In this document: piece after piece, positions 2,241 to 60,859 of the stretch | How the letters are laid out: each line of letters starts with the position of its first letter | Position numbering within the stretch: the stretch's first letter is position 1 | Source: Chrysomallon squamiferum | Taxonomy: Eukaryota; Animalia; Mollusca | Direction of reading: 5' to 3' | Length of the DNA: 64,000 bases | Assembly (NCBI GenBank): GCA_012295275.1 | Contig: CM022679.1 | Coordinates: forward strand, 27,218,001-27,282,000 | Made by a program: the position numbers and the translations under genes | Notes under the pieces: model-generated | Databases searched by the model: none | What the model was told of the DNA's origin: nothing | The model's input: the letters and a program-made list of their open reading frames with translations, nothing else

Positions 2241-3820
2241 AGTGTATTAATAATGTCTAAATGTGAGAAAAGAAATTATTTCGTCGAATTACTGTTATGT
2301 CTTCATTTTTCTTTTCTTTATTGTATTTGTAATAAAACCATGCCTAAAATAAAATCTGTTTATCGAATTTGTTATTGTTTAAACTACTGTCATGCTCATG
2401 TTTTATTACACATCTTCCCTTTCCATTCCAAATTATTGTTTGAAATGAAGAGAAATGATTATTATTATTACTACTGTTGTTTATTTGTATTTCTTCGAGT
2501 TATTATACCAATTCCTTTTCCATTCCAAATTAATGTCAGAAACTGTATCAAATTACAGCTGGATTTGGAGAAAATATTAACAATTGTTTCTAGTTTACCT
2601 CATGAAACAATGACAAGCAAACTTATTTTGAGTTTCTTGGTGTTTTTTAGTTGTTGTTTTTTGGGGGGGGTCTTTCTTTTGCATCATGGCTTCAGAATAG
2701 CTGGATTTGGATTTTTTAATATATATATATATATATTTGTTTTTTTTTATTAGTGGCAAGATTTTTGGCTCCATTTATAAAAGTTTTTTTTTTCTGAAAA
2801 AAGTCAGTTTATAGATTATATTCAATACCATGAAGCCATATGGTATCATTAGTGTCCCAATTTCTGAAAACCAGTTTCACTAAAATGTTAATAACTATAA
2901 ATATTAATGTGAAATCTTCAGATTAAAGTCTAAATATTGTGACACAATCTGAAAATTAATAATTCAACATGGAAAGTAATATTTATTAATCACAATTATT
3001 ATTTAATTTAAAAAGTAATAAACAAAAACTCTGATCTTATCAAGCAAAATTATTTTATTATATGTTAGAAATTTAAATGACAGTATTCATCAAGTTCTGG
3101 TAACCAACATACATACATACATGTTTTTACCTCCTAGTGAAAAGAGAAGAAAGATTTTTTATTTCCATTGATAACAAATGTATTAAATATTTTGCAGCTT
3201 TTATCCTGTTATTTTCTTAGGGCAGTATGTAACATTTTTAAATTTAATTTATTCTTAAAAGTTTCCTGACAAAAAGGTGTTTGATGTTTTCTAGAATTAG
3301 TCAAGAATATGTCATTTATTCATTTCCATCATAACTATTTATTTTTAAAATTAAATTAATAATTATATAAACAAAAACCTATTACAGACAGGCCAAGAAG
3401 GGACTAGTAAAGAAAAAAAATAAAATAAAATAAAACAGTGTTCAAGACCAACATAATTTCTCCATACTGGTTTATATACCTATATTATATATACATATTC
3501 TTATCTCGATATTTCAAGTAGATATATGTAAATAAAAATTTAGCTACATAAAATTATCTCAAATTTGCACTTCAGGATCCATTTTAATCATAATCATAGT
3601 AAACTGAATCATTTGCTGGTAGTAAATAAAAATAAATTAATAAAAATAAAGTACTGAATATAAGAAATATATATATATACATCTAATACAAATCTTTAAT
3701 TACCTACATTAAAAAAAAAAAAAAAAAAAAAAAACTACAACAATAATCGAACAAATAAAAAAGAAACCAACTACCAAACACTGTAATTATATATTTACAT
3801 TAATAACAAATAATGTTTCT

Positions 3821-4501
3821 TTATTTCAAGCTTGAATCAAAATTTTCAGTGACAATGTTTTCAATTTTCTTTTTGTAATTTTCCACAGTGAGTTTAGCTT
3901 CACTGATTATCTGTGAGTAACTAAGTGAAATCTTTTCTAGTACTGTTTTAGATAACAAGTTATCACAAACTTCTGTTTTCACTCTCTCACTTTCTGGACT
4001 GGTGGTCAAATCATCCAGACCCAAATCACTGACCACTGACTGATCGTAACAAACTGCACACTGGCCTTGACCATTACACAAACATACAGGTGGAGAAGTG
4101 GACATGTCACGCTGTTTAAAAACATCAGTTTCTGAACATTTGGTTAGAACAGATTTTTTAAGATCTTTCTCAAATTTAATGAGGTTTTCCAATATGTCTT
4201 CCAGCTCAAAACGATTTTTCTCTGTTAGAGTAAATACTGAATTCTGTGTTTGGCTTGATGCTAAAATGGCACTCACAGTTCCCCGTAGCTTTCCTGTTTT
4301 GTATCCAATAGCAACAGCTTGTTTGTAGCCGAAGTTAAATCCATCCTGCAAAGAGAGCTCCTCTCCCTGACTCACTCCATTTCTAAACTGTTCTTTCAGC
4401 AGCCGAGTTCTTGTTTTATTCCAGTCTCTTTGTTGTAGAAGACTTTCATCAGCATCCTCATCAAACACGTCATCACAACTACTACTACTACATTCTGCCA
4501 T
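3821..4501 (-). CDS. YAE1: YAE1 homolog (Yae1 domain protein; CIA-pathway adaptor for ABCE1/Rli1 Fe-S maturation), 226 aa, single coding exon
   Basis: Acidic N-terminus DDVFDEDADE..LQQRDW followed by the Gx3 repeat FRNGVSQGEELSLQDGFNFGYKQAVAIGYKTGKLRGTVSA typical of Yae1_N. A splice acceptor (ttttctttcttatatAG, AG at 4532-4531) lies 29 nt upstream of the ATG. Confidence 0.88.
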   Translation of the reverse strand: MAECSSSSCDDVFDEDADESLLQQRDWNKTRTRLLKEQFRNGVSQGEELSLQDGFNFGYKQAVAIGYKTGKLRGTVSAILASSQTQNSVFTLTEKNRFELEDILENLIKFEKDLKKSVLTKCSETDVFKQRDMSTSPPVCLCNGQGQCAVCYDQSVVSDLGLDDLTTSPESERVKTEVCDNLLSKTVLEKISLSYSQIISEAKLTVENYKKKIENIVTENFDSSLK

Positions 4502-5064
4502 TGTTACTTTAATAATGTTCTCTTAAATTACTATATAAGAAAGAAAAATACACTGAAAGCACAAAAATCAGTGTGGTAAGAATACAAATCTGAGAACACA
4601 AAATATTTTAAATCTTGTTATTTAAAAAGGGAAATAAATTTTATATAAAGTAATTGATGAAAGAGTTAAAGCGTTTTGCACTTGACAATAATTATTTATA
4701 ATGCAATTCTGCTCGAGCTCAAGCTACAAATCCTGTGAGTAATAGAAAAATTAACTGAAAACTCAAAATTTCATTCACCTTTTTACAAACCTTTTCTTAA
4801 ACGATGTTGACTATTCAAGAAATGAAATGAAACTCTAACATTACATATAAGTAACAGTTCACTTATTTTCTAACACAGTGTCCAGTACACACACAAAAGG
4901 AACAAAATAAACAAATCTTTTTTAAGAAACAAAAACTTGGACAAAATTCACAAAATAAAAGTCTTAAAAATACTTTTAAATAAAGTTTTTACAATACAAA
5001 AAAAGCCAAAAGTCTTTGGACACAGATTGTTTCTGGATATCAAGGTGGATGTTAAGTCACTAAG

Positions 5065-8000
5065 TTACAGAGCAATCCCACCCAGACAGCGAGGGGAGGG
5101 GTCAGTCTGTTTTGAACTCTCCCACTGTTCTGGAGTTTTAGCCTGAAATGTTAATAATTAAACAAAGATTGAAAGCCATTTAAAATTCTTTAATACTGTA
5201 AATTTCAGATATTTAAATATTTATATACAAAATGAGGGAAAAATAAAATAAAACCAAAAATAAAATAAAATAAAATAAAATAAAAATTAACATTAGAAAG
5301 AGAAATAAGAAAAAAATATTTTGTACTGCTATTAAATTATTTTCCCAAACTCAGTATTTCTGTACATTTCCTTATGTTGTTACACACAGTAAAAGTCCAT
5401 TACTTAATATACAGTTTTGATTTTTTAATCTCAATCCATTTTCAATGAAGTTATCTTCAATTACACTGCGTAATAATATTAATTTGGAAACACTAATTAT
5501 GGTATTGTTATTTAAAATTCTGAAGAATATTTTATTTATTATGTAGGCTATGATTTTAAATGAAAAGTTGTTTTGAAAGGAAAAATTTACAAAACATTAC
5601 AACCAAACATATATCACAATGGTTACATTACACATAAAAAAGATATAATAATAACAGTTTTAAAAATTGTGAAATATTATTAAGAATTTTTTTTTTTAAT
5701 AATATCATCTATGATAATGATATTTAAAATTCAAAAAAAAAAAAAAAAAAAAAAATATTCTGTATATTGATAAAGTAAGTAAAAATTAAAGATAACCATA
5801 ATACATATTAACAGATTCAGCATTTTTATAAACGTTCACATACATAAAGATTATCATATATATATATATATATATATACATATATACAAACATTTTAATT
5901 GTAAGGAAATAAAAAATAATCAAATGACAAAGTTTATTTACCACAACAGACAGAGCATGAATTGATCCACTTAGTTCTTCCTTTAAAATTTCATTTACCA
6001 TCTGGTGTCTCTGAAATATGTAAATGAGGACAACTGTGAGAGATATTTACAGTTAGAAACATGTGGAATACCTATAGAGTTTAATTTTTGTACAATATAT
6101 ATTAAAATTAAAAACTGCGAAATATTTATTAAAAAGAATATCATCAAAAATATTGAATATTTACAAAATTAAAAATTAATTTTGCAAAAAAAACAACCGA
6201 AAAAGCAAATAAAACATGAACATAAAGCACTCTTGCTCATTTAATTTAAATACAGAACTAGAATATATGAGAGAGAGTGAGCGAATGAAAGAAAACTAAA
6301 TATTTGATAAAACAAAATTAAGTTTTAAAAAAAGAAAAAAGCTAGCAACTTTTTGTACACTGTCTTCTAATAAAATGGAGTAATTTGATTACTTAAAATT
6401 AAATTGTTCTTACCTTAAGGACAGGTTTATCCTTAAACACATCAGACACAACAAGCACTTTGAAATGTGTTTCTGATCCTGTAAATACAAATTTATTTAT
6501 TTAGTATAAATGATTTCATCGTCCAAAATTAACATTCAGATGCTTTCTTTTTTGAAAAATACATTTTTTAAACTTGTTATTAGAAATGAACTGAAAAAGT
6601 AAAAAATAAAAGTTATAACAAAATAAATAAATAAGTAAATAAGTATTTATATATCTTTTTTCTTCTTTTTTTATGAAAAGATGATAGAAAATTGATACTA
6701 TGTTTCAATCCACTATTTAAGATAAAACAAAATAATAAATAAATAACAAATAAAAATTTACCTTTAGGAACACAGTGCATGTAACTCTCATTGACAATAT
6801 CCAGAACTTTTGGCTGAAATTATCAACAACATAAACTTTACAACAACCATAAACATAAACAAGTTCTTCTCTACAGACCCTATCATGTTTTTACCATTAG
6901 TGTTTGCAATTAAATTATATAAATAAAAAGAAATGTATTGTCCAAAACAAGCCTTGGTAATTTTTTAAAATGAATAAATCAGAAAGAAAGAAGAAAAATC
7001 TGAGGTATACTGCAGGTTTAATGGAGATTATCATTATATAAATATGCTACAGAATTATGTTATTACCTGGAACGTCTCTGTCAGCTTTCTTTTAATTGAA
7101 GCTTCAATTGGTTTCTGTTAAAATAAAAATTAAAAAGTATTAAAATAAAAAAATTAAAAATATCTATCATTCATTCATTGTAAGTACATACATTATCTTC
7201 ATTCAGTTTTAATTAAAATTAAAAAATTATATCACTAATAATAGTGCAGTTTAAAAATATTTTAGTTTTTGACATTTTTCTGTATTCGTATTATAATATT
7301 ATTGCTTACATATACAACATATTTCAATTTGCTCTGTTGTCAGAAAAATAAAGCAATCAATCCACCAAATACACAATGACAAGATGAGTCCATGTTTGAA
7401 GGGTAAAATGACAACATTCAAATATTTTGTAATGATTATTATTTTTCTGTAATACTTTAGGAGTGATAGTATATCACGCAAAGCAATAAAATGTATGTAA
7501 AACATTATCAGACATTGCTATATAGCAAAACTTTTAAGCACTTTGACCACTTTTTTTTATTTTTTTACAATAAAACACTATATATCATAGCTATATAATC
7601 AAGATATTACCTACCTCGGCGGCTATGGCAGCACTCATATTTCTGCAGATCTGGGAGATGCCAACCTGAGCTATACGCTGTCCTCGTAAGATAAATGCTG
7701 AAAATCAACATGGATGTTTTAAACTTCATTGAATATAATCAAGTGTATTTATATATATATATATATTATTATTATGTTTATTTGTTGTTGTTTTTTCATT
7801 TAAAGGTGTAGATGATTACAATTTACAGGCAAAATTATGAGTTTTAAAATTATAATTTAATAATATATGTACATAAATAAATTCATTTTTGAACTAATAA
7901 CATCATTTATATAATATTTCTAAATATCTACTGGTGCATGTAATTCTATACTATTATATACTGAACATCTGAAGATATTTATAAGAATGTCTTTTGTAGA

Positions 8001-8688
8001 AAACTTTAACAATCTATAGTATATATATTTTACATGGTTTATGAAATTAAAATGTTCAGATAATTTTATAATTAGTTTTTACCAATCGTTAAAATTACTG
8101 TTATAAACTTACTTCATTATATGTAATTTGTAAACAATAATAATAAATTAATAATAAAATTTAACAAAATTAACATTAAATTTATAGATACTTTATGACA
8201 GATGTTTAAAAATAGTAAGACTGTTTAAAACTGGTTCATTTTAATACAAATTAATATAATATTAAATTTATCATTTATCATTTTCGTTGTTTTATATATT
8301 AAAATATTTATATTTATAAGAATTAGTTTTTTTTTACCAAATACTTTTACTAGATTTAGCGATAACACCCCTACGAGCTGATAAACAACCTGAACACTAA
8401 CATTATTACGTTATTATTATACTTCAGTTCAATGTGGAATTGCTTAATCATCATGAAGTAACATTATTTATGAATATGAAGTACAATAACTATCACGATA
8501 AATGAACATGAAGTACAAGAAATATCACGATAATTGAACATGATTGAACAAAATTAATGTTCTTTGCGGTTATTAATACTAACCCATCTCTTTTTACATT
8601 AGCTCTGACAACTTTATATGTAATACACAGTGAAAAACAAAGCTTAAACGTTAAATTGTAAAAACGTTGTTATTTTACCTGATGTCAT
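5065..8688 (-). CDS. BOLA1: BolA-like protein 1 (mitochondrial BolA), 134 aa, 7 exons
   Basis: Phase-consistent exons 8688-8679, 7697-7615, 7114-7067, 6813-6762, 6478-6414, 6010-5942 and 5142-5065 give MTSAFILRGQRIAQVGISQICRNMSAAIAAEKPIEASIKRKLTETFQPKVLDIVNESYMHCVPKGSETHFKVLVVSDVFKDKPVLKRHQMVNEILKEELSGSIHALSVVAKTPEQWESSKQTDPSPRCLGGIAL*. NES..H.VP.GSETHF, RH.MV, IHAL and SP.CLGG are BOLA1 hallmarks; the Arg-containing, acid-free N-terminus resembles a presequence. Confidence 0.93.
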
Positions 8689-8882
8689 TACAGTGATTGA
8701 GTGTTAAAACTTTCCACAATCAGTTAAATTGCATCATATCATTTGCATCATTCTATTTCTATCAATCACGTTTTTTGGATTATCCAGACCATTTTACTAT
8801 CTAGTTCTTTCAAATCAAGACTACTTCCTCGGTGCTCCAGCTTTGTAGGAGGAAATTCTGTAATACTGAAAGAAAAGAAAAT
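8689..8882. promoter_or_regulatory. Bidirectional promoter between BOLA1 (-) and DCTN4 (+)
   Basis: Only 194 bp separate the two divergent ATGs. ETS-like cores ACTTCC (8823) and GGAGGAA (~8848) are present; no clear TATA box. Confidence 0.8.
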
Positions 8883-11800
8883 ATGGCTACCTATATCGAT
8901 ATTAATTTGGTAAAATATGTTTGTACATGTGGTAAGAAACAACCATTTTGCAGATTGTATTTATGCAGGCACTGTTCAGAACTTAGATGCGTGGACTGTG
9001 TACAACACGAGGTAAATACAGTACTGGTAGCGAAGATAATCAAAGAAACTGAGCTAGATTCAAGCATGCAAAGTACTAAGTTACAAGTAGGACAACCGTT
9101 GGTCGTTACAATTTTTACCGATCCAGCCCAAAATCTGCGTCGATGTGTTCCAGTTTCTCACTCTGTTTCTAAAAGTTGGAATATATAATGTTAGAAATTC
9201 AATAACCTTAAATATTTTAACTTAGGTTTATGACAGTGCCATAAACACTCGACTCGCTGTCACCATGATTGAACGAATGAATGATCATACAGCCAAACTG
9301 ATACTGTCATGATTTAAATTAACCTGATTAATTATTAAAATGATCCTGCAGACCAGGTTCGGTCAATAAGATTACTCAAATTACTATTTCAAAATTTAAC
9401 TACCACTGTGCAGTGTACCAGTAAATTGTGTAATTATCAGTTCCACGACTATGTTAGTTTATTATGTATGTAATTGATTTATAATTTGTATAAACATGAT
9501 AAACCACTTTTACTAGGTTAAAGCATATACTAGGCTTAGTTCCTGTTCTCAACCCAAACACTGGTTAACTGAGAATCTGTTTCTGCTGTGTGGCTATTTA
9601 AACTCAGACAAACATTTAAAAACTAATATTCACATATTTGCAGAAATATCAACAGACAAAAAAAAAGAAAAGAAAGAAAAGGAAATTAACATTAACTATA
9701 TTTATTATAAACTAATAATATTAGCTCATTTCTGTGGCAGATTTAAACATTACAAAGAATTTAATTCCATTTTCTGAATAAACAGACTGTAAGATTTAAT
9801 GTATTAACACTAAAATCAAAATTGAACAGTTTATTTCCAGTAAAATATAAATATGTTTGTTTTCTAGGGAGACAGTCACTACTGCACTCACTGTCTGGAA
9901 AATATGCCGTCTGCAGAGGCAAAGATGAGAAAAAACAGGTAACCAAAAACGTTTTCTCTTTCTCAAATTCCATAATCAGTATTATGCTCTTGTAAGGTTG
10001 TTGAATGTTCATAATGTTATTGATATGAGTAGTACTGTATGTATGAAACTGATTTAATTGTCAACTTAGCATTATAAATGTTTAAAAACGATAAAATAAA
10101 AAATAAATCAATTAAATTAAATTAAATTTAAAACAAATCAAGAAATGTAAAGATTCTCAGATTTATTGTTGTTGTTATTTAAATTAGTATTGTTTATAAT
10201 TAGAAGTAAATTAGCAGTGAACACTGAAAAACTGGTTCGTGTGTTAAAGGTGTTCTCGGTGTTTGGATTGTCCTGCCTGTGGAAACACTCTGATGACTCG
10301 GGCTACCAACATGATGGTGACATCATCACCTGACCCGAGTAAGCCATCGACTCCGACAACTCCGAAGAAAATGTATTACTTGGCTTGTGGATTCTGTCGC
10401 TGGACAACCAGAGATGTGGGCATACCAGACCAGACTGTGGGTACGTGACTGATATCTGAACACACGTTATTTAAATTCATAAAATTTTAGAGTATTTGTG
10501 TAAGTAAGCTTAGAACAGAAAATGTTTATTGTCAGAATAATATATTTTTCTTAATTTAAATTTTAAAGTGTTCTGTATAAGTAAGTTTAGAACAGAAAAT
10601 ATTTGGGTAATTTAGAATAAAATATCTTTTTTTAATTTAGAGTATTCTGTACAAGTAAGTTTAGAACAGAAAATATTTTGATAGTTTAAAATTTAGAATA
10701 TTTTGTACAGCTCGGTGTTCTGATGACATGAAACTTTATGTAACTTGAGACAGTGCATTCAGAATGAGAAAACAAATAGATATACATGTAATTAGTTAAT
10801 TTTTATTTTAAATGAAAAAAAAAAGAAGGAAAAATGAACAAGAAAGAAAAACCTTTTTATGGGTTTTTAAATAAATACTGACAGCCTTTAGCTCTGTTTT
10901 TTTCTTTAACTGTGTTTAATCTAAACTTGACAAAATAAAACTTTTATAACTGGAATAATGAAGAGTTTGATTCTGATGGAAATGTTAAATAAAAAACTGA
11001 AACATTTATACAGAATATTTTAAATTAACAACGTCTGATAGAAATATGACGAACACCAAAATGTTACGTTGAGACCAAATTTATGCTGAATATTTTGATA
11101 TCTGACATTTCTAAAGTTATAATTTATGGGGTTGCCAATTATGTTGACTGTTTAATGGTGTTACTTATTTTATTTTTTTATACCTATAATTATAAATTTT
11201 ATTTTTCTGTGTTTTTATAGCAAGTGGAGGTTTGCCAGAACAAGAAAATGAAGCTAACAAACTGGTAGAGCACATTTCTTTCTCGCAAATATTTTACCTT
11301 CACTGAATCACTTTTTACAGTTTTCTTCAGTGAACTCACATGTTTATTTTCTATCATGTCTCCATTGATGAATAACTATAATTCAGTTAGTTGTAAGAAC
11401 ACTGGTTTTCTGAGATAACTTGAGCTCAGTGGATCAGTCATCCCATGTGTACCCATTCCCTTTTTTCACAATCCAGCCAAGTGCCCCATAACTGTTTCAT
11501 CAAATGGCATTTTGCATTACATTTTGCAGTGTACAAGAAGGTTCATATAAAAATGGATATTCTACTTTGTATTATTATTATTATTATTATTATTATCTAA
11601 CAATTGTTAATCATTTACATGTGGAAGTGTCATTAAACAAATTTATTTATTTATATATTTATTAAAATCATTCTCTCCAATGACAGATTAGAACGTTGAA
11701 GCAAAGGTTAATTGCTTGATTGAATGAAAATGTTTGTGTCTGTTGACAGATTGGTCCAATACTAGAATATTACCATCTCCTGGCACAGAAAGAGAAGACA

Positions 11801-32669: not shown

Positions 32670-46792
<14,123 letters not shown>

Positions 46793-55378: not shown

Positions 55379-56297
55379 TTACCTACATCCACACTCGTCG
55401 GCGATCATTTCTTCGTGGTGGCGTACGACAATTTCGTCGTATTCAAAGTATAACATGCTCAACGGTTTCAACTTGACGGGGACACAACATGGCAGCGGCG
55501 CGCTCTTCGGCTTTTTGATTTTCATCAACGTCTGCAGCATGGCGTGGTTGGTGGGTTTGTACTTGACGTCCAGAGGCGACGGGCACTCCCCGTAACAGAA
55601 ACGAGCATTGAACCTCTTCGGGTGAATAATCCACTGTCCCCATCCGATCGTGTTGAAATCGATTTCGTACTCGTACCGTTTGCACCCGTCTTTGTATTTG
55701 TTCTTCCGCCATTTGTTCCGACCGCGCGCCCTCCGACCTTTCCTCGGAGTTCTTCGGTCTCGCGACGCGACCGTTTCCGGAATCGAACGTTCGGCTGCGG
55801 TGTAGCTCTTGTACATGTTTCTGAAGAAGTCGTGGTCTTGAAGATAGAAAACAATGAGCGAGTCGCTTTTGTTCATTCTCGAATTCGTCTCGGCGTCTCT
55901 CTTGTACGGCTTGGGAAGGCGAATGCGAATTGTCACGTTGCCGTGATAACGGTTGATCCACTGCCTGAGCACTCGGGTGATGTCGTACACGTCGTACTGG
56001 TCCTGCGTCGTGGCTTTTTCTCTGACGACGATTTTTCTCACGAAGGCGTTGGATTTTGTGACGTCAAGTCGTAGCTTGATTCTGCGGCCTGTCGTGGAGT
56101 CGCCTGGACGTCGAACAAAGCGCAGTTCTGCCAGTCTCAGCACCTCGTTGCGTGGTAAGTAGGGAATTTTGAAAACAACGCCTTGTTTAAGGTTCGATTT
56201 CTTTTCATCTGAAACAGGAAAAGTGAATTCATTTAACAACCGTTTGTATGAATAATATATCCGTCGATTTGTAAATATACATTTGTTATTGTTGTCG

Positions 56298-56334
<37 letters not shown>

Positions 56335-56510
56335 AAATTTAAACATTCATTATTATTATTTTAATTAGTCTATTACCACTCATCCTTACCCACTTTTCAC
56401 AGACATAAAGACATGACTATAACAACATCAATAATGACAATAATGATGATGATAATAATATGAAGAACAACAACAACGACAACAACTGTTATTGTTGTTG
56501 CGTTATTAAA

Positions 56511-60159: not shown

Positions 60160-60815
60160 TCATTAAATCTGATCTCGACATTTTTATTATTATTATTAAT
60201 AATTTGTTTATTTAAATATTTACATTTGAACTAATATTAACTGTTAATTATTATTATTATTATTATTATTTGTCTCACATTTAAAAAGATAGCAAAAGAT
60301 TGTGCGTGTTTTACAAAGATAACGAGAAAATAATATTATATTATAAAATTAAAATTCAGACGATAAATTATTAATGTGCAAATTAATTAATGATTAGCGG
60401 AGAAAACAACGAGTTATTTTACAGATAACTTACCACTAGCGGAGAAACTGCGGATGGTATCCGAAAGTTTAAAATCGGGTTTCTCCCAAGTTTGGCCTGC
60501 GGCTTTAGCAACGGACTGAGTTTTTTGTATTCCGTTAAACAGTCTGATCATAAAAACTGCCGAGGCCTTCCTGAAATCAGTGCCCGTGTGTCTGTTCTTA
60601 AATATGTCATGTAGGACGACATTTTCGTCCAATATTTCGTGTTTCGTTGTCGGGTGGGTTTTGGAATTCAACCAGAAGGACGTAAAATCCGCCTTTTTGG
60701 CGTGCGCACCGCCGGCACTAAAAAGTATCGTTATTGCAACCATCTTCAACAAGTGATGTATCATGTTTTTACGAAGAACAACAGCAGCAGCAGCAGCGAC
60801 ACCATTCGTTATCAT
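55379..60815 (-). CDS. nodal: Nodal (TGF-beta superfamily ligand), ~403 aa, 2 exons
   Basis: Exon 1 60815-60434 (signal peptide MVAITILFSAGGAHA; prodomain FMIRLF, SDTIRSF) joins in phase 1 to exon 2 56208-55379. Furin site RDRR; 7-Cys knot with IDFNTIGWGQWIIHPKRFNA, C.GECPSP, PTNHA, CCVPVKLKPLSMLY and RHHEEMIADECGCR, characteristic of Nodal. The start may instead be the ATG at 60764. Confidence 0.92.
57962..59188. repeat. Near-identical ~120-bp direct repeats (57962-58081 and 59067-59188) in the Nodal intron; a second, older pair at ~57120-57290 and ~59365-59560
   Basis: tatggtagtttaatcattaataatttgttaaaatcgctttatataat...gccgtactaa.tggcatgataataaataaatatggttg occurs twice. Confidence 0.85.
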
Positions 60816-60859
60816 GGTACCCGTTTAGATTGCACTTGGCTGCTGTTAAACAACTCTGA

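What the first reader, a model, noticed from the sequence alone, without database searches (positions are those of the whole stretch)
3821..8688. BOLA1 and YAE1, two Fe-S biogenesis genes, appear to share one transcription unit
Seen: the YAE1 ATG lies 563 bp downstream of the BOLA1 stop on the same strand. I find no AATAAA or ATTAAA on that strand between the BOLA1 stop and the YAE1 acceptor, and no promoter-like island. YAE1 is preceded by a good splice acceptor (4532-4531), so it needs an upstream exon. Model A: a bicistronic mRNA with a small intron from AAG|GTGAAT at 4778 (a donor hexamer also used by the TNIP-like gene). Model B: BOLA1 exon 1 (ATG ACA TCA G, phase 1) splices directly to 4530, giving a 5-codon uORF MTSVI* in frame with and 21 nt before the YAE1 ATG; one promoter would then choose between two unrelated proteins by splicing. 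An in-frame TAA excludes a fusion protein. Known: BOLA1 works with GLRX5 in mitochondrial Fe-S assembly, and YAE1-LTO1 recruits the CIA complex to ABCE1. Inference: an operon-like coupling of mitochondrial and cytosolic Fe-S maturation.
Basis: partly seen in the sequence, partly recalled or inferred. Interest (0 to 1): 0.8.

Follow-up and report, generated by a model that had tools for sequence, protein, structure and literature searches.

The report
Snail BOLA1–YAE1 two-protein message

Summary
The anatomy holds: a seven-exon BOLA1 (134 aa) is followed 563 nt after its stop by an intronless YAE1 (226 aa), minus strand. In 3 of 3 RNA runs laid (one study) a single contig joins spliced BOLA1 exons, crosses the spacer unspliced and enters YAE1; one holds the whole YAE1 ORF; introns 3-6 are spliced out. 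Neither proposed splice (4778 or 8678 to 4530) appears, so 'YAE1 needs an upstream exon' is not supported; rare isoforms cannot be excluded. The spacer is ATG-poor (3 vs 8-12 expected), and spacer and YAE1 are CpG-poor like gene bodies. Best reading: a ~2.5-kb dicistronic mRNA from the BOLA1/DCTN4 promoter (about 0.75), with YAE1 likely translated by resumed scanning or internal entry (0.5 for the whole model). Contigs cannot prove one molecule; an internal YAE1 promoter is the main rival. Conservation in molluscs could not be tested; the one other locus found has no BolA neighbour. Closest precedent: Drosophila BolA-like CG33672-mevalonate kinase, an unrelated pair. Fe-S co-regulation is untested. 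New member of a known kind.

The parts
8679..8688 (-). BOLA1 exon 1, coding part (start codon, phase-1 donor at 8678); 5' end inferred at about 8759-8777
   Evidence: model; contig overhangs of 162-180 nt beyond exon 3 equal exon 2 plus 81-99 nt; only the first 30 overhang letters were shown, so exon 1 itself is inferred
7615..7697 (-). BOLA1 exon 2 (predicted mitochondrial targeting stretch)
   Evidence: loose end at 7116 in X1, X2, X3 reads into the 3' end of this exon
7067..7114 (-). BOLA1 exon 3
   Evidence: joint 6813-7067 in 3 of 3 RNA runs
6762..6813 (-). BOLA1 exon 4
   Evidence: consecutive contig pieces in X1 record 5 and X3 record 16
6414..6478 (-). BOLA1 exon 5
   Evidence: joint 6010-6414; BolA-family PDB hits, weak, best E=0.075
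5942..6010 (-). BOLA1 exon 6
   Evidence: joints 5141-5941 and 6010-6414; 10 of 10 PDB hits listed are BolA-family or BolA-like chains, best 1v60 E=0.0033 (identity of 1v60 and 2kdn as BolA proteins is recalled)
5065..5142 (-). BOLA1 last coding segment with TAA stop (5067-5065); start of the long terminal exon
   Evidence: best PDB hit 5lci 'BolA-like protein 1' E=0.00092
4502..5064 (-). 563-nt intercistronic spacer, exonic and unspliced in RNA contigs; 3 ATGs only (4846, 4841, 4774; uORFs of 1, 8 and 3 codons), none in the last 269 nt; no stable fold in its 3' half
3821..4501 (-). YAE1 ORF, intronless, 226 aa, start context with A at -3 and G at +4
   Evidence: Pfam Yae1_N; 48-49% identical to Gigantopelta aegis XP_041363985.1
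3043..3820 (-). 3' UTR; AATAAA at 3059-3054, predicted poly(A) site near 3043
   Evidence: aligned parts of X1 and X2 contigs end at 3044 and 3043 while DNA-like X5 goes on (both one study, X1 record has 67 further unplaced letters: weak hint)
8689..8882 (.). 194 nt between the BOLA1 and DCTN4 start codons: predicted bidirectional promoter and leaders
   Evidence: DCTN4-like ATG at 8883 on +; Dynactin_p62 hit for the exon at 10248-10445; CpG o/e 0.86-0.95 in flanking 7698-8678 and 8883-9300

Best explanation
Assembled RNA runs from the spliced BOLA1 exons unspliced through the 563-nt spacer into the intronless YAE1 frame, so the locus likely makes one ~2.5-kb dicistronic mRNA from the promoter it likely shares with DCTN4, and YAE1 is likely translated from it by resumed scanning or internal entry across the ATG-poor spacer. 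BOLA1 is the first cistron and would be read by ordinary cap-dependent scanning. Because its stop lies in the last exon, no exon junction follows it and the message would escape junction-dependent nonsense-mediated decay. Leaky scanning past BOLA1 is unlikely (7 internal ATGs in its coding region). The pairing is most simply promoter sharing by two small housekeeping genes; iron-responsive coupling is not shown. Shown: both ORFs, splicing of introns 2-6, continuous RNA across the spacer. Inferred: one molecule, the start and end sites, the translation route.
For:: X3 record 16 (1832 nt) covers 3750-5141 plus exons 6, 5, 4, 3 and an overhang reading into exon 2; X1 record 5 (1561 nt) covers 3998-5141 plus the same exons; X2 record 13 (1110 nt) covers 4449-5141 and carries the same three joints at its depth. 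The bins wholly inside introns 3-6 have depth 0 in the RNA runs (one bin 0.6 in X3) while DNA-like X5 covers most of them, so the spacer cover is not DNA or pre-mRNA. No canonical poly(A) hexamer in 5064-4532, several after YAE1. Spacer ATGs 3 vs 10.4 (mononucleotide shuffle, P=0.004), 8.2 (Markov, P=0.03), 12.1 (BOLA1 intron rate, P=0.002); 2.8% of 562 like-GC windows have 3 or fewer; the YAE1 3' UTR has 22 in 771 nt. CpG o/e 0.30-0.31 in YAE1 and spacer, like gene bodies here (0.29-0.36), unlike promoter-near DNA (0.86-0.95). Precedent: Drosophila CG33672 (BolA-like) is dicistronic-only, 397 nt ahead of mevalonate kinase (PMC4528330 File S1; PMC2276209).
Against: Only contigs were available: a contig across two genes does not show one molecule, and poly(A) tails, short leaders and rare forms are dropped. 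All three RNA runs are one study. 563 nt is longer than the -34 to 319 nt given for obligate fly dicistronics (PMC4528330 section 6; one File S1 pair seen at 351), and the fly BolA precedent has an alternative promoter for its second gene. ATG depletion is clearer in the YAE1-near half (1 vs 6.1, P=0.017) than the BOLA1-near half (2 vs 6.0, P=0.06), which also fits a leader from an internal start. Reinitiation after a 134-codon ORF is generally inefficient (PMC2276209 passage on uORF length; own knowledge). The CpG contrast is weak on a CpG/GpC test (P=0.15). No stable structure for an IRES (z=-0.12).
Confidence: 0.5

Rival explanations
1. Structurally dicistronic, functionally not: BOLA1's only mRNA carries YAE1 in its 3' UTR, but YAE1 protein comes mainly from a shorter mRNA started at an internal promoter in the spacer, as for Drosophila CG33672/CG33671.
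For: The fly BolA-like pair is annotated exactly so. ATG-free last 269 nt. TATA-like words at 4700 and 4647 and Inr-like words at 4758 and 4556 (common in 26% GC DNA). Spacer longer than obligate fly pairs.
Against: Spacer and YAE1 are CpG-depleted like methylated gene body (weak). The BOLA1-near half of the spacer is also ATG-poor (P=0.06).
Confidence: 0.25
2. Two separate monocistronic genes whose transcripts merely overlap: BOLA1 ends at a variant poly(A) signal in the spacer and YAE1 starts upstream of that point, so short reads assemble into one contig.
For: Variant hexamers at 4867, 4798, 4775, 4700, 4645; absence of canonical hexamers has 5-28% chance; contigs drop poly(A) tips.
Against: Needs both an unseen poly(A) site and an unseen promoter overlapping by more than 31 nt; three runs give one unbroken path.
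Confidence: 0.14
3. One reading: a 4778-4531 intron (A) or BOLA1 exon 1 spliced to 4530 (B) is the main source of YAE1 mRNA.
For: The AG at 4531 has a better pyrimidine tract than the six real acceptors and lies 29 nt before the ATG (3% by chance). Model B gives a short uORF suited to reinitiation. Contigs drop rare variants.
Against: No joint or loose end at 4530 or 4778 in 3 of 3 RNA runs; contigs cross both sites. Model A would put an exon junction 287 nt behind the BOLA1 stop, a usual trigger of nonsense-mediated decay (own knowledge). Exon 1 lay outside the stretch laid, so model B could only have shown as a loose end; the loose-end table was cut (35 rows not shown), though RNA records only partly laid number just 1, 0 and 3.
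Confidence: 0.08
4. Operon resolved by spliced-leader trans-splicing at the unpaired acceptor 4531, which would cap a monocistronic YAE1 mRNA.
For: An acceptor-like site just before the second ATG with no cis-donor in use is the layout of SL operons (PMC12460157 passages for chaetognaths); a leader under 31 nt would be lost from contigs.
Against: No paper on SL trans-splicing in gastropods among 5 listed or in molluscs among 8 listed, by titles and abstracts; no upstream poly(A) hexamer for BOLA1; spacer fully covered in RNA.
Confidence: 0.03

Closest known systems
Drosophila CG33672 (BolA-like, called a BOLA2 orthologue in PMC13240139) - CG33671 (mevalonate kinase) dicistronic locus
   Same: Small BolA-family ORF first, unrelated housekeeping ORF second, spacer of several hundred nt (397 vs 563), upstream gene apparently only on the long mRNA (PMC4528330 File S1; PMC2276209).
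   Different: BOLA1 not BOLA2; partner is YAE1, also an Fe-S factor; first ORF spread over 7 exons; the fly second gene has a documented alternative promoter, untested here; the fly pairing is conserved to honeybee ESTs, conservation here untested.
Drosophila dicistronic loci in general (159 pairs, 2.5% of protein-coding genes with a polycistronic transcript; PMC4528330 section 6)
   Same: Two non-overlapping ORFs on one processed RNA, no trans-splicing; 82% of fly loci join dissimilar genes; mitochondrial proteins are over-represented (PMC2276209).
   Different: Spacer longer than obligate fly pairs; mollusc host; single-molecule support lacking here.
MOCS2A/MOCS2B bicistronic mRNA (functionally linked pair; PMC4528330 section 6, PMC2276209)
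   Same: Two proteins of one broad cofactor pathway on one message, if the Fe-S link is meaningful.
   Different: MOCS2 subunits form one enzyme and the pairing is conserved across eukaryotes; BOLA1 (mitochondrial, GLRX5 partner) and YAE1 (cytosolic, ABCE1 maturation; PMC6205161) act in different compartments and conservation is not shown.

Membership tests
Animal dicistronic mRNA (FlyBase sense) | Two intact, non-overlapping, conserved ORFs in tandem on one strand, no fusion protein | tested here: met
   no BOLA1 donor joined to 4530 gives a fusion (6 of 6 donors hit a stop)
Animal dicistronic mRNA (FlyBase sense) | Processed RNA continuous from spliced first gene across the spacer into the second ORF | tested here: met
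   3 of 3 RNA runs laid, one study
Animal dicistronic mRNA (FlyBase sense) | One molecule spans both ORFs (cDNA or long read) | tested here: inconclusive
   only short-read contigs held; one 1832-nt contig spans both
Animal dicistronic mRNA (FlyBase sense) | Both proteins translated from that molecule | not testable with these tools
   indirect only: ATG-poor spacer, strong YAE1 start context
   7 internal ATGs in the BOLA1 coding region, 3 in a 563-nt spacer
Shared-first-exon alternative splicing (model B) or spacer intron (model A) | Splice junction ending at 4530 | tested here: not met
   no joint or loose end there; contigs cross the site; rare forms not excluded
SL trans-spliced operon | Spliced leader added at the downstream acceptor | not testable with these tools
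   contigs drop short leaders; no raw-read run was offered
Functional gene cluster (operon-like Fe-S unit) | Adjacency conserved across species | tested here: inconclusive
   no mollusc genome reachable; 0 of 1 other locus has a BolA neighbour within its 7077 nt; 0 of 31 YAE1 homologues scanned carry a BolA domain from merged gene models, 4 of 31 carry other domains
Functional gene cluster (operon-like Fe-S unit) | Co-regulation by iron or Fe-S status | not testable with these tools
   Rfam scan of 2900-9300 found no IRE or other element; 1 sub-threshold snoRNA match, E=0.31
BOLA1 subfamily | BOLA1-type C-terminal extension | tested here: met
   last exon matches 5lci 'BolA-like protein 1' E=0.00092 and 1v60; no BOLA2/BOLA3 chain among 3 hits

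The most novel reading that the evidence does not exclude
A gastropod-conserved Fe-S 'mini-operon': one mRNA ties the mitochondrial factor BOLA1 to the cytosolic adaptor YAE1, and ribosome re-entry across the ATG-poor spacer sets YAE1 output according to iron or mitochondrial Fe-S state; since YAE1 matures ABCE1, the ribosome-recycling factor that governs post-termination ribosomes, low ABCE1 activity would raise re-initiation on YAE1 and close a feedback loop.
Probability: 0.1. Interest if true: 0.8.

Novelty: new member of a known kind. Interest (0 to 1): 0.42.

Why it matters
Nuclear dicistronic mRNAs are well catalogued in flies but none from a mollusc turned up in the searches run, and no paper links YAE1 with 'bicistronic' or 'polycistronic'. 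The locus is a compact test case for how a second full-length ORF is translated behind a multi-exon first gene and a long spacer. YAE1 is needed to mature ABCE1, which recycles ribosomes after termination (ABCE1 role from own knowledge), so if YAE1 depends on post-termination re-initiation the arrangement could regulate itself. If YAE1 simply has its own start in the spacer, the locus is ordinary tight packing of housekeeping genes.

Tried and rejected
No whole genome is held for the window. Synteny in molluscs: metagenome scans gave 0 loci with the broad alignment (588 pattern matches, none confirmed) and 1 locus with the narrow one (scan stopped at 29 of 64 parts); a homologue search with the frame holding BOLA1 exon 6 gave 3 candidates, none at E<=10, so BOLA1 accession numbers could not be set beside the YAE1 ones. 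Pfam did not recognise the single short BOLA1 exons or DCTN4 exon 1. Contig depth is higher on YAE1-only contigs than on the BOLA1-plus-spacer contig in X2 (93 vs 48) and X1 (70 vs 47); not used, since contig depth cannot rank parts of a gene and GC differs (37% vs 26%). Gaps in RNA cover of the 3' UTR fall at simple repeats and were not read as ends. The 3' half of the spacer has no unusual fold (z=-0.12). ATG-free sub-windows (215 nt, P=0.01; 269 nt, P=0.003) were chosen after looking, so the fixed halves are quoted instead. Fish YAE1 proteins named 'OTU deubiquitinase a' (14 of 48 hits) were considered as a parallel shared unit, but this may be a naming carry-over and was not tested. A fusion protein is excluded. 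No fold or complex job was sent: no binding is claimed. Earlier-findings look-ups near the locus, by sequence and by the words YAE1+BOLA1+bicistronic gave nothing.
Full report
Observation. On the minus strand a seven-exon gene (8688-8679, 7697-7615, 7114-7067, 6813-6762, 6478-6414, 6010-5942, 5142-5065; all GT..AG) gives a 134-aa protein. Its last exon matches human 'BolA-like protein 1' (5lci, E=0.00092) and exons 5 and 6 match BolA-family chains, so BOLA1 is the right name. 563 nt after its stop starts an uninterrupted 226-codon ORF with a Yae1_N domain (E=1.2e-8). Its best relative is Gigantopelta aegis XP_041363985.1 at 48-49% identity, so the host is likely a gastropod (inference). DCTN4 lies head to head, its start codon 194 nt from that of BOLA1.

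RNA evidence. Five runs hold 3800-5200: four RNA runs of one study and one unlabelled run of a second; all are kept as contigs. I laid three of the four RNA runs and the unlabelled one on 2900-7122, a stretch that leaves out exons 1 and 2. In 3 of 3 RNA runs one contig carries the BOLA1 splice joints and continues unspliced through the whole spacer into YAE1: X3 record 16 (1832 nt) to 3750, past the YAE1 stop; X1 record 5 (1561 nt) to 3998; X2 record 13 (1110 nt) to 4449. Each has an overhang at exon 3 whose 30 shown letters read into exon 2. Bins inside introns 3-6 are empty in the RNA runs (one at 0.6), while X5 covers most of them and shows no splice joints, i.e. it behaves as DNA. So the spacer is exon. 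No joint or loose end is listed at 4530 or 4778. Table 8 lists 5 of 5 records for X1, 8 of 9 for X2 and 3 of 4 for X3, none ending at those sites; the loose-end table omitted 35 rows and the piece table 68. Limits: a contig over two genes does not show one molecule; rare forms, poly(A) tips and short leaders are dropped; one study only. Aligned parts of X1 and X2 contigs end at 3044 and 3043, about 10 nt behind an AATAAA at 3059-3054, a weak hint of the 3' end. With a 5' end near 8759-8777 (arithmetic on overhang lengths) the message would be about 2.5 kb.

How it most likely works. The spacer looks like a leader: 3 ATGs against 10.4 (shuffle, P=0.004), 8.2 (Markov, P=0.03) or 12.1 (intron rate, P=0.002) expected; 2.8% of 562 comparable windows are as poor; the 3' UTR has 22 in 771 nt. 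The three ATGs open uORFs of 1, 8 and 3 codons ending at least 261 nt before the YAE1 start, which has A at -3 and G at +4. BOLA1's coding region has 7 internal ATGs, so leaky scanning is unlikely. By fixed halves the depletion is P=0.06 near BOLA1 and P=0.017 near YAE1. CpG o/e is 0.30-0.31 in YAE1 and spacer, as in gene bodies here (0.29-0.36), and 0.86-0.95 beside the BOLA1/DCTN4 promoter, though the CpG/GpC contrast is weak (P=0.15); reading low CpG as gene-body methylation rests on my knowledge of molluscs. No stable fold and no Rfam element. I commit to a dicistronic mRNA (about 0.75 that it is BOLA1's main message) with YAE1 made from it by resumed scanning or internal entry (0.5 overall). 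Leaving the spacer unspliced keeps the BOLA1 stop in the last exon, whereas model A would place a junction 287 nt behind it, a usual decay trigger (own knowledge).

Conservation. It could not be tested in molluscs. The single other locus found, L001 (7077 nt, gene-dense, 30% GC), has an intronless YAE1 between a DUF1674 gene on the other strand and an asparaginase-family gene, with no BolA match. Of 31 YAE1 homologues scanned with Pfam (30 picked from the 150 listed plus P0002 for length or N-terminal extensions; one more) none carries a BolA domain, and 4 carry other domains: Peptidase_C101 (hake), MEA1 (a fungus), Ala_racemase_N (wild rice), ANTH (a fungus). These are probably merged gene models; they show that YAE1's close neighbours vary. 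That the pairing serves Fe-S control is untested.

Comparison with what is known. FlyBase lists 159 dicistronic pairs; 45 are obligate, obligate spacers run -34 to 319 nt, 82% join dissimilar genes, and internal initiation is postulated for most (PMC4528330: passages, section 6 whole, File S1 part 1 of 6 and searched rows; supplement 1 could not be searched). File S1 has CG33672 as dicistronic-only, 397 nt ahead of CG33671, which has an alternative promoter; CG33672 is BolA-like and CG33671 mevalonate kinase, the pairing reaching honeybee ESTs (PMC2276209, passages); PMC13240139 (passages) calls CG33672 the BOLA2 orthologue. So a BolA-family first cistron with an unrelated partner is known. 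Not found in print by these searches: yae1+bola1 (4 papers, by listing none on a shared transcript; passages read for one), yae1+bicistronic (0), yae1+polycistronic (0), yae1+otulin (2, unrelated by listing), polycistronic+bicistronic+mollusc+transcripts (15, 11 listed; the snail paper PMC10875847 concerns mitochondrial RNAs, passages), dicistronic+mollus (15, 14 listed, none by title on a nuclear mollusc gene pair). For SL trans-splicing I saw listings and passages of PMC7854359 and PMC12460157; PMC7986045 has no mention of molluscs. PMC4528329 was seen as abstract and outline only. The library lacks most subscription papers, and annotation tables in supplements I could not search may already show this pair.

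Verdict. New member of a known kind, interest 0.42. The boldest reading not excluded is a conserved, self-regulating Fe-S unit in which ABCE1 activity tunes re-initiation on its own maturation factor (probability 0.1, interest 0.8).

Noticed in passing
window 8689-8751, minus strand: Five ATGs within 63 nt upstream of the BOLA1 start open uORFs of 2-5 codons; if the inferred 5' end (8759-8777) is right, BOLA1 itself sits behind a uORF cluster.
   Followed up: partly
window 8883-10448+, plus strand: DCTN4 (dynactin p62) head to head with BOLA1, 194 nt between start codons; a TATCGATA word (DRE-like, label recalled) at 8894, 1 of 3 in the window.
   Followed up: partly
window 37564-41024: About 3.5 kb GC-rich tandem repeat with long open frames on the + strand (up to 843 codons); probably a satellite or minisatellite.
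   Followed up: no
window 55379-56338 and 60414-60824, minus strand: Two exons of a TGF-beta family ligand, BMP/nodal-like by eye from the translation; no family scan run.
   Followed up: no
window 8397-8458, minus strand (BOLA1 intron 1): Sub-threshold match to C/D-box snoRNA SNORD37 (24 bits vs gathering 45, E=0.31); may be chance or an intronic snoRNA.
   Followed up: no
proteins P0107, P0002, P0197-P0216: Fish and shark YAE1 proteins are named 'OTU deubiquitinase with linear linkage specificity a' (14 of 48 hits) and one hake model fuses Yae1_N to Peptidase_C101: adjacency or a shared unit in fishes, or a naming carry-over.
   Followed up: partly
window 4478 and 4161 (run X5): In-frame 3-nt deletion in the YAE1 serine run and a 4-nt insertion at 4161 in X5 contigs; the latter would shift the frame, so a null allele or an assembly artefact.
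   Followed up: no
L001 1268-6344: Very gene-dense eukaryotic contig: RINGv, an unnamed ORF, DUF1674, YAE1, asparaginase-family and peptidase S26 genes within 5 kb.
   Followed up: partly
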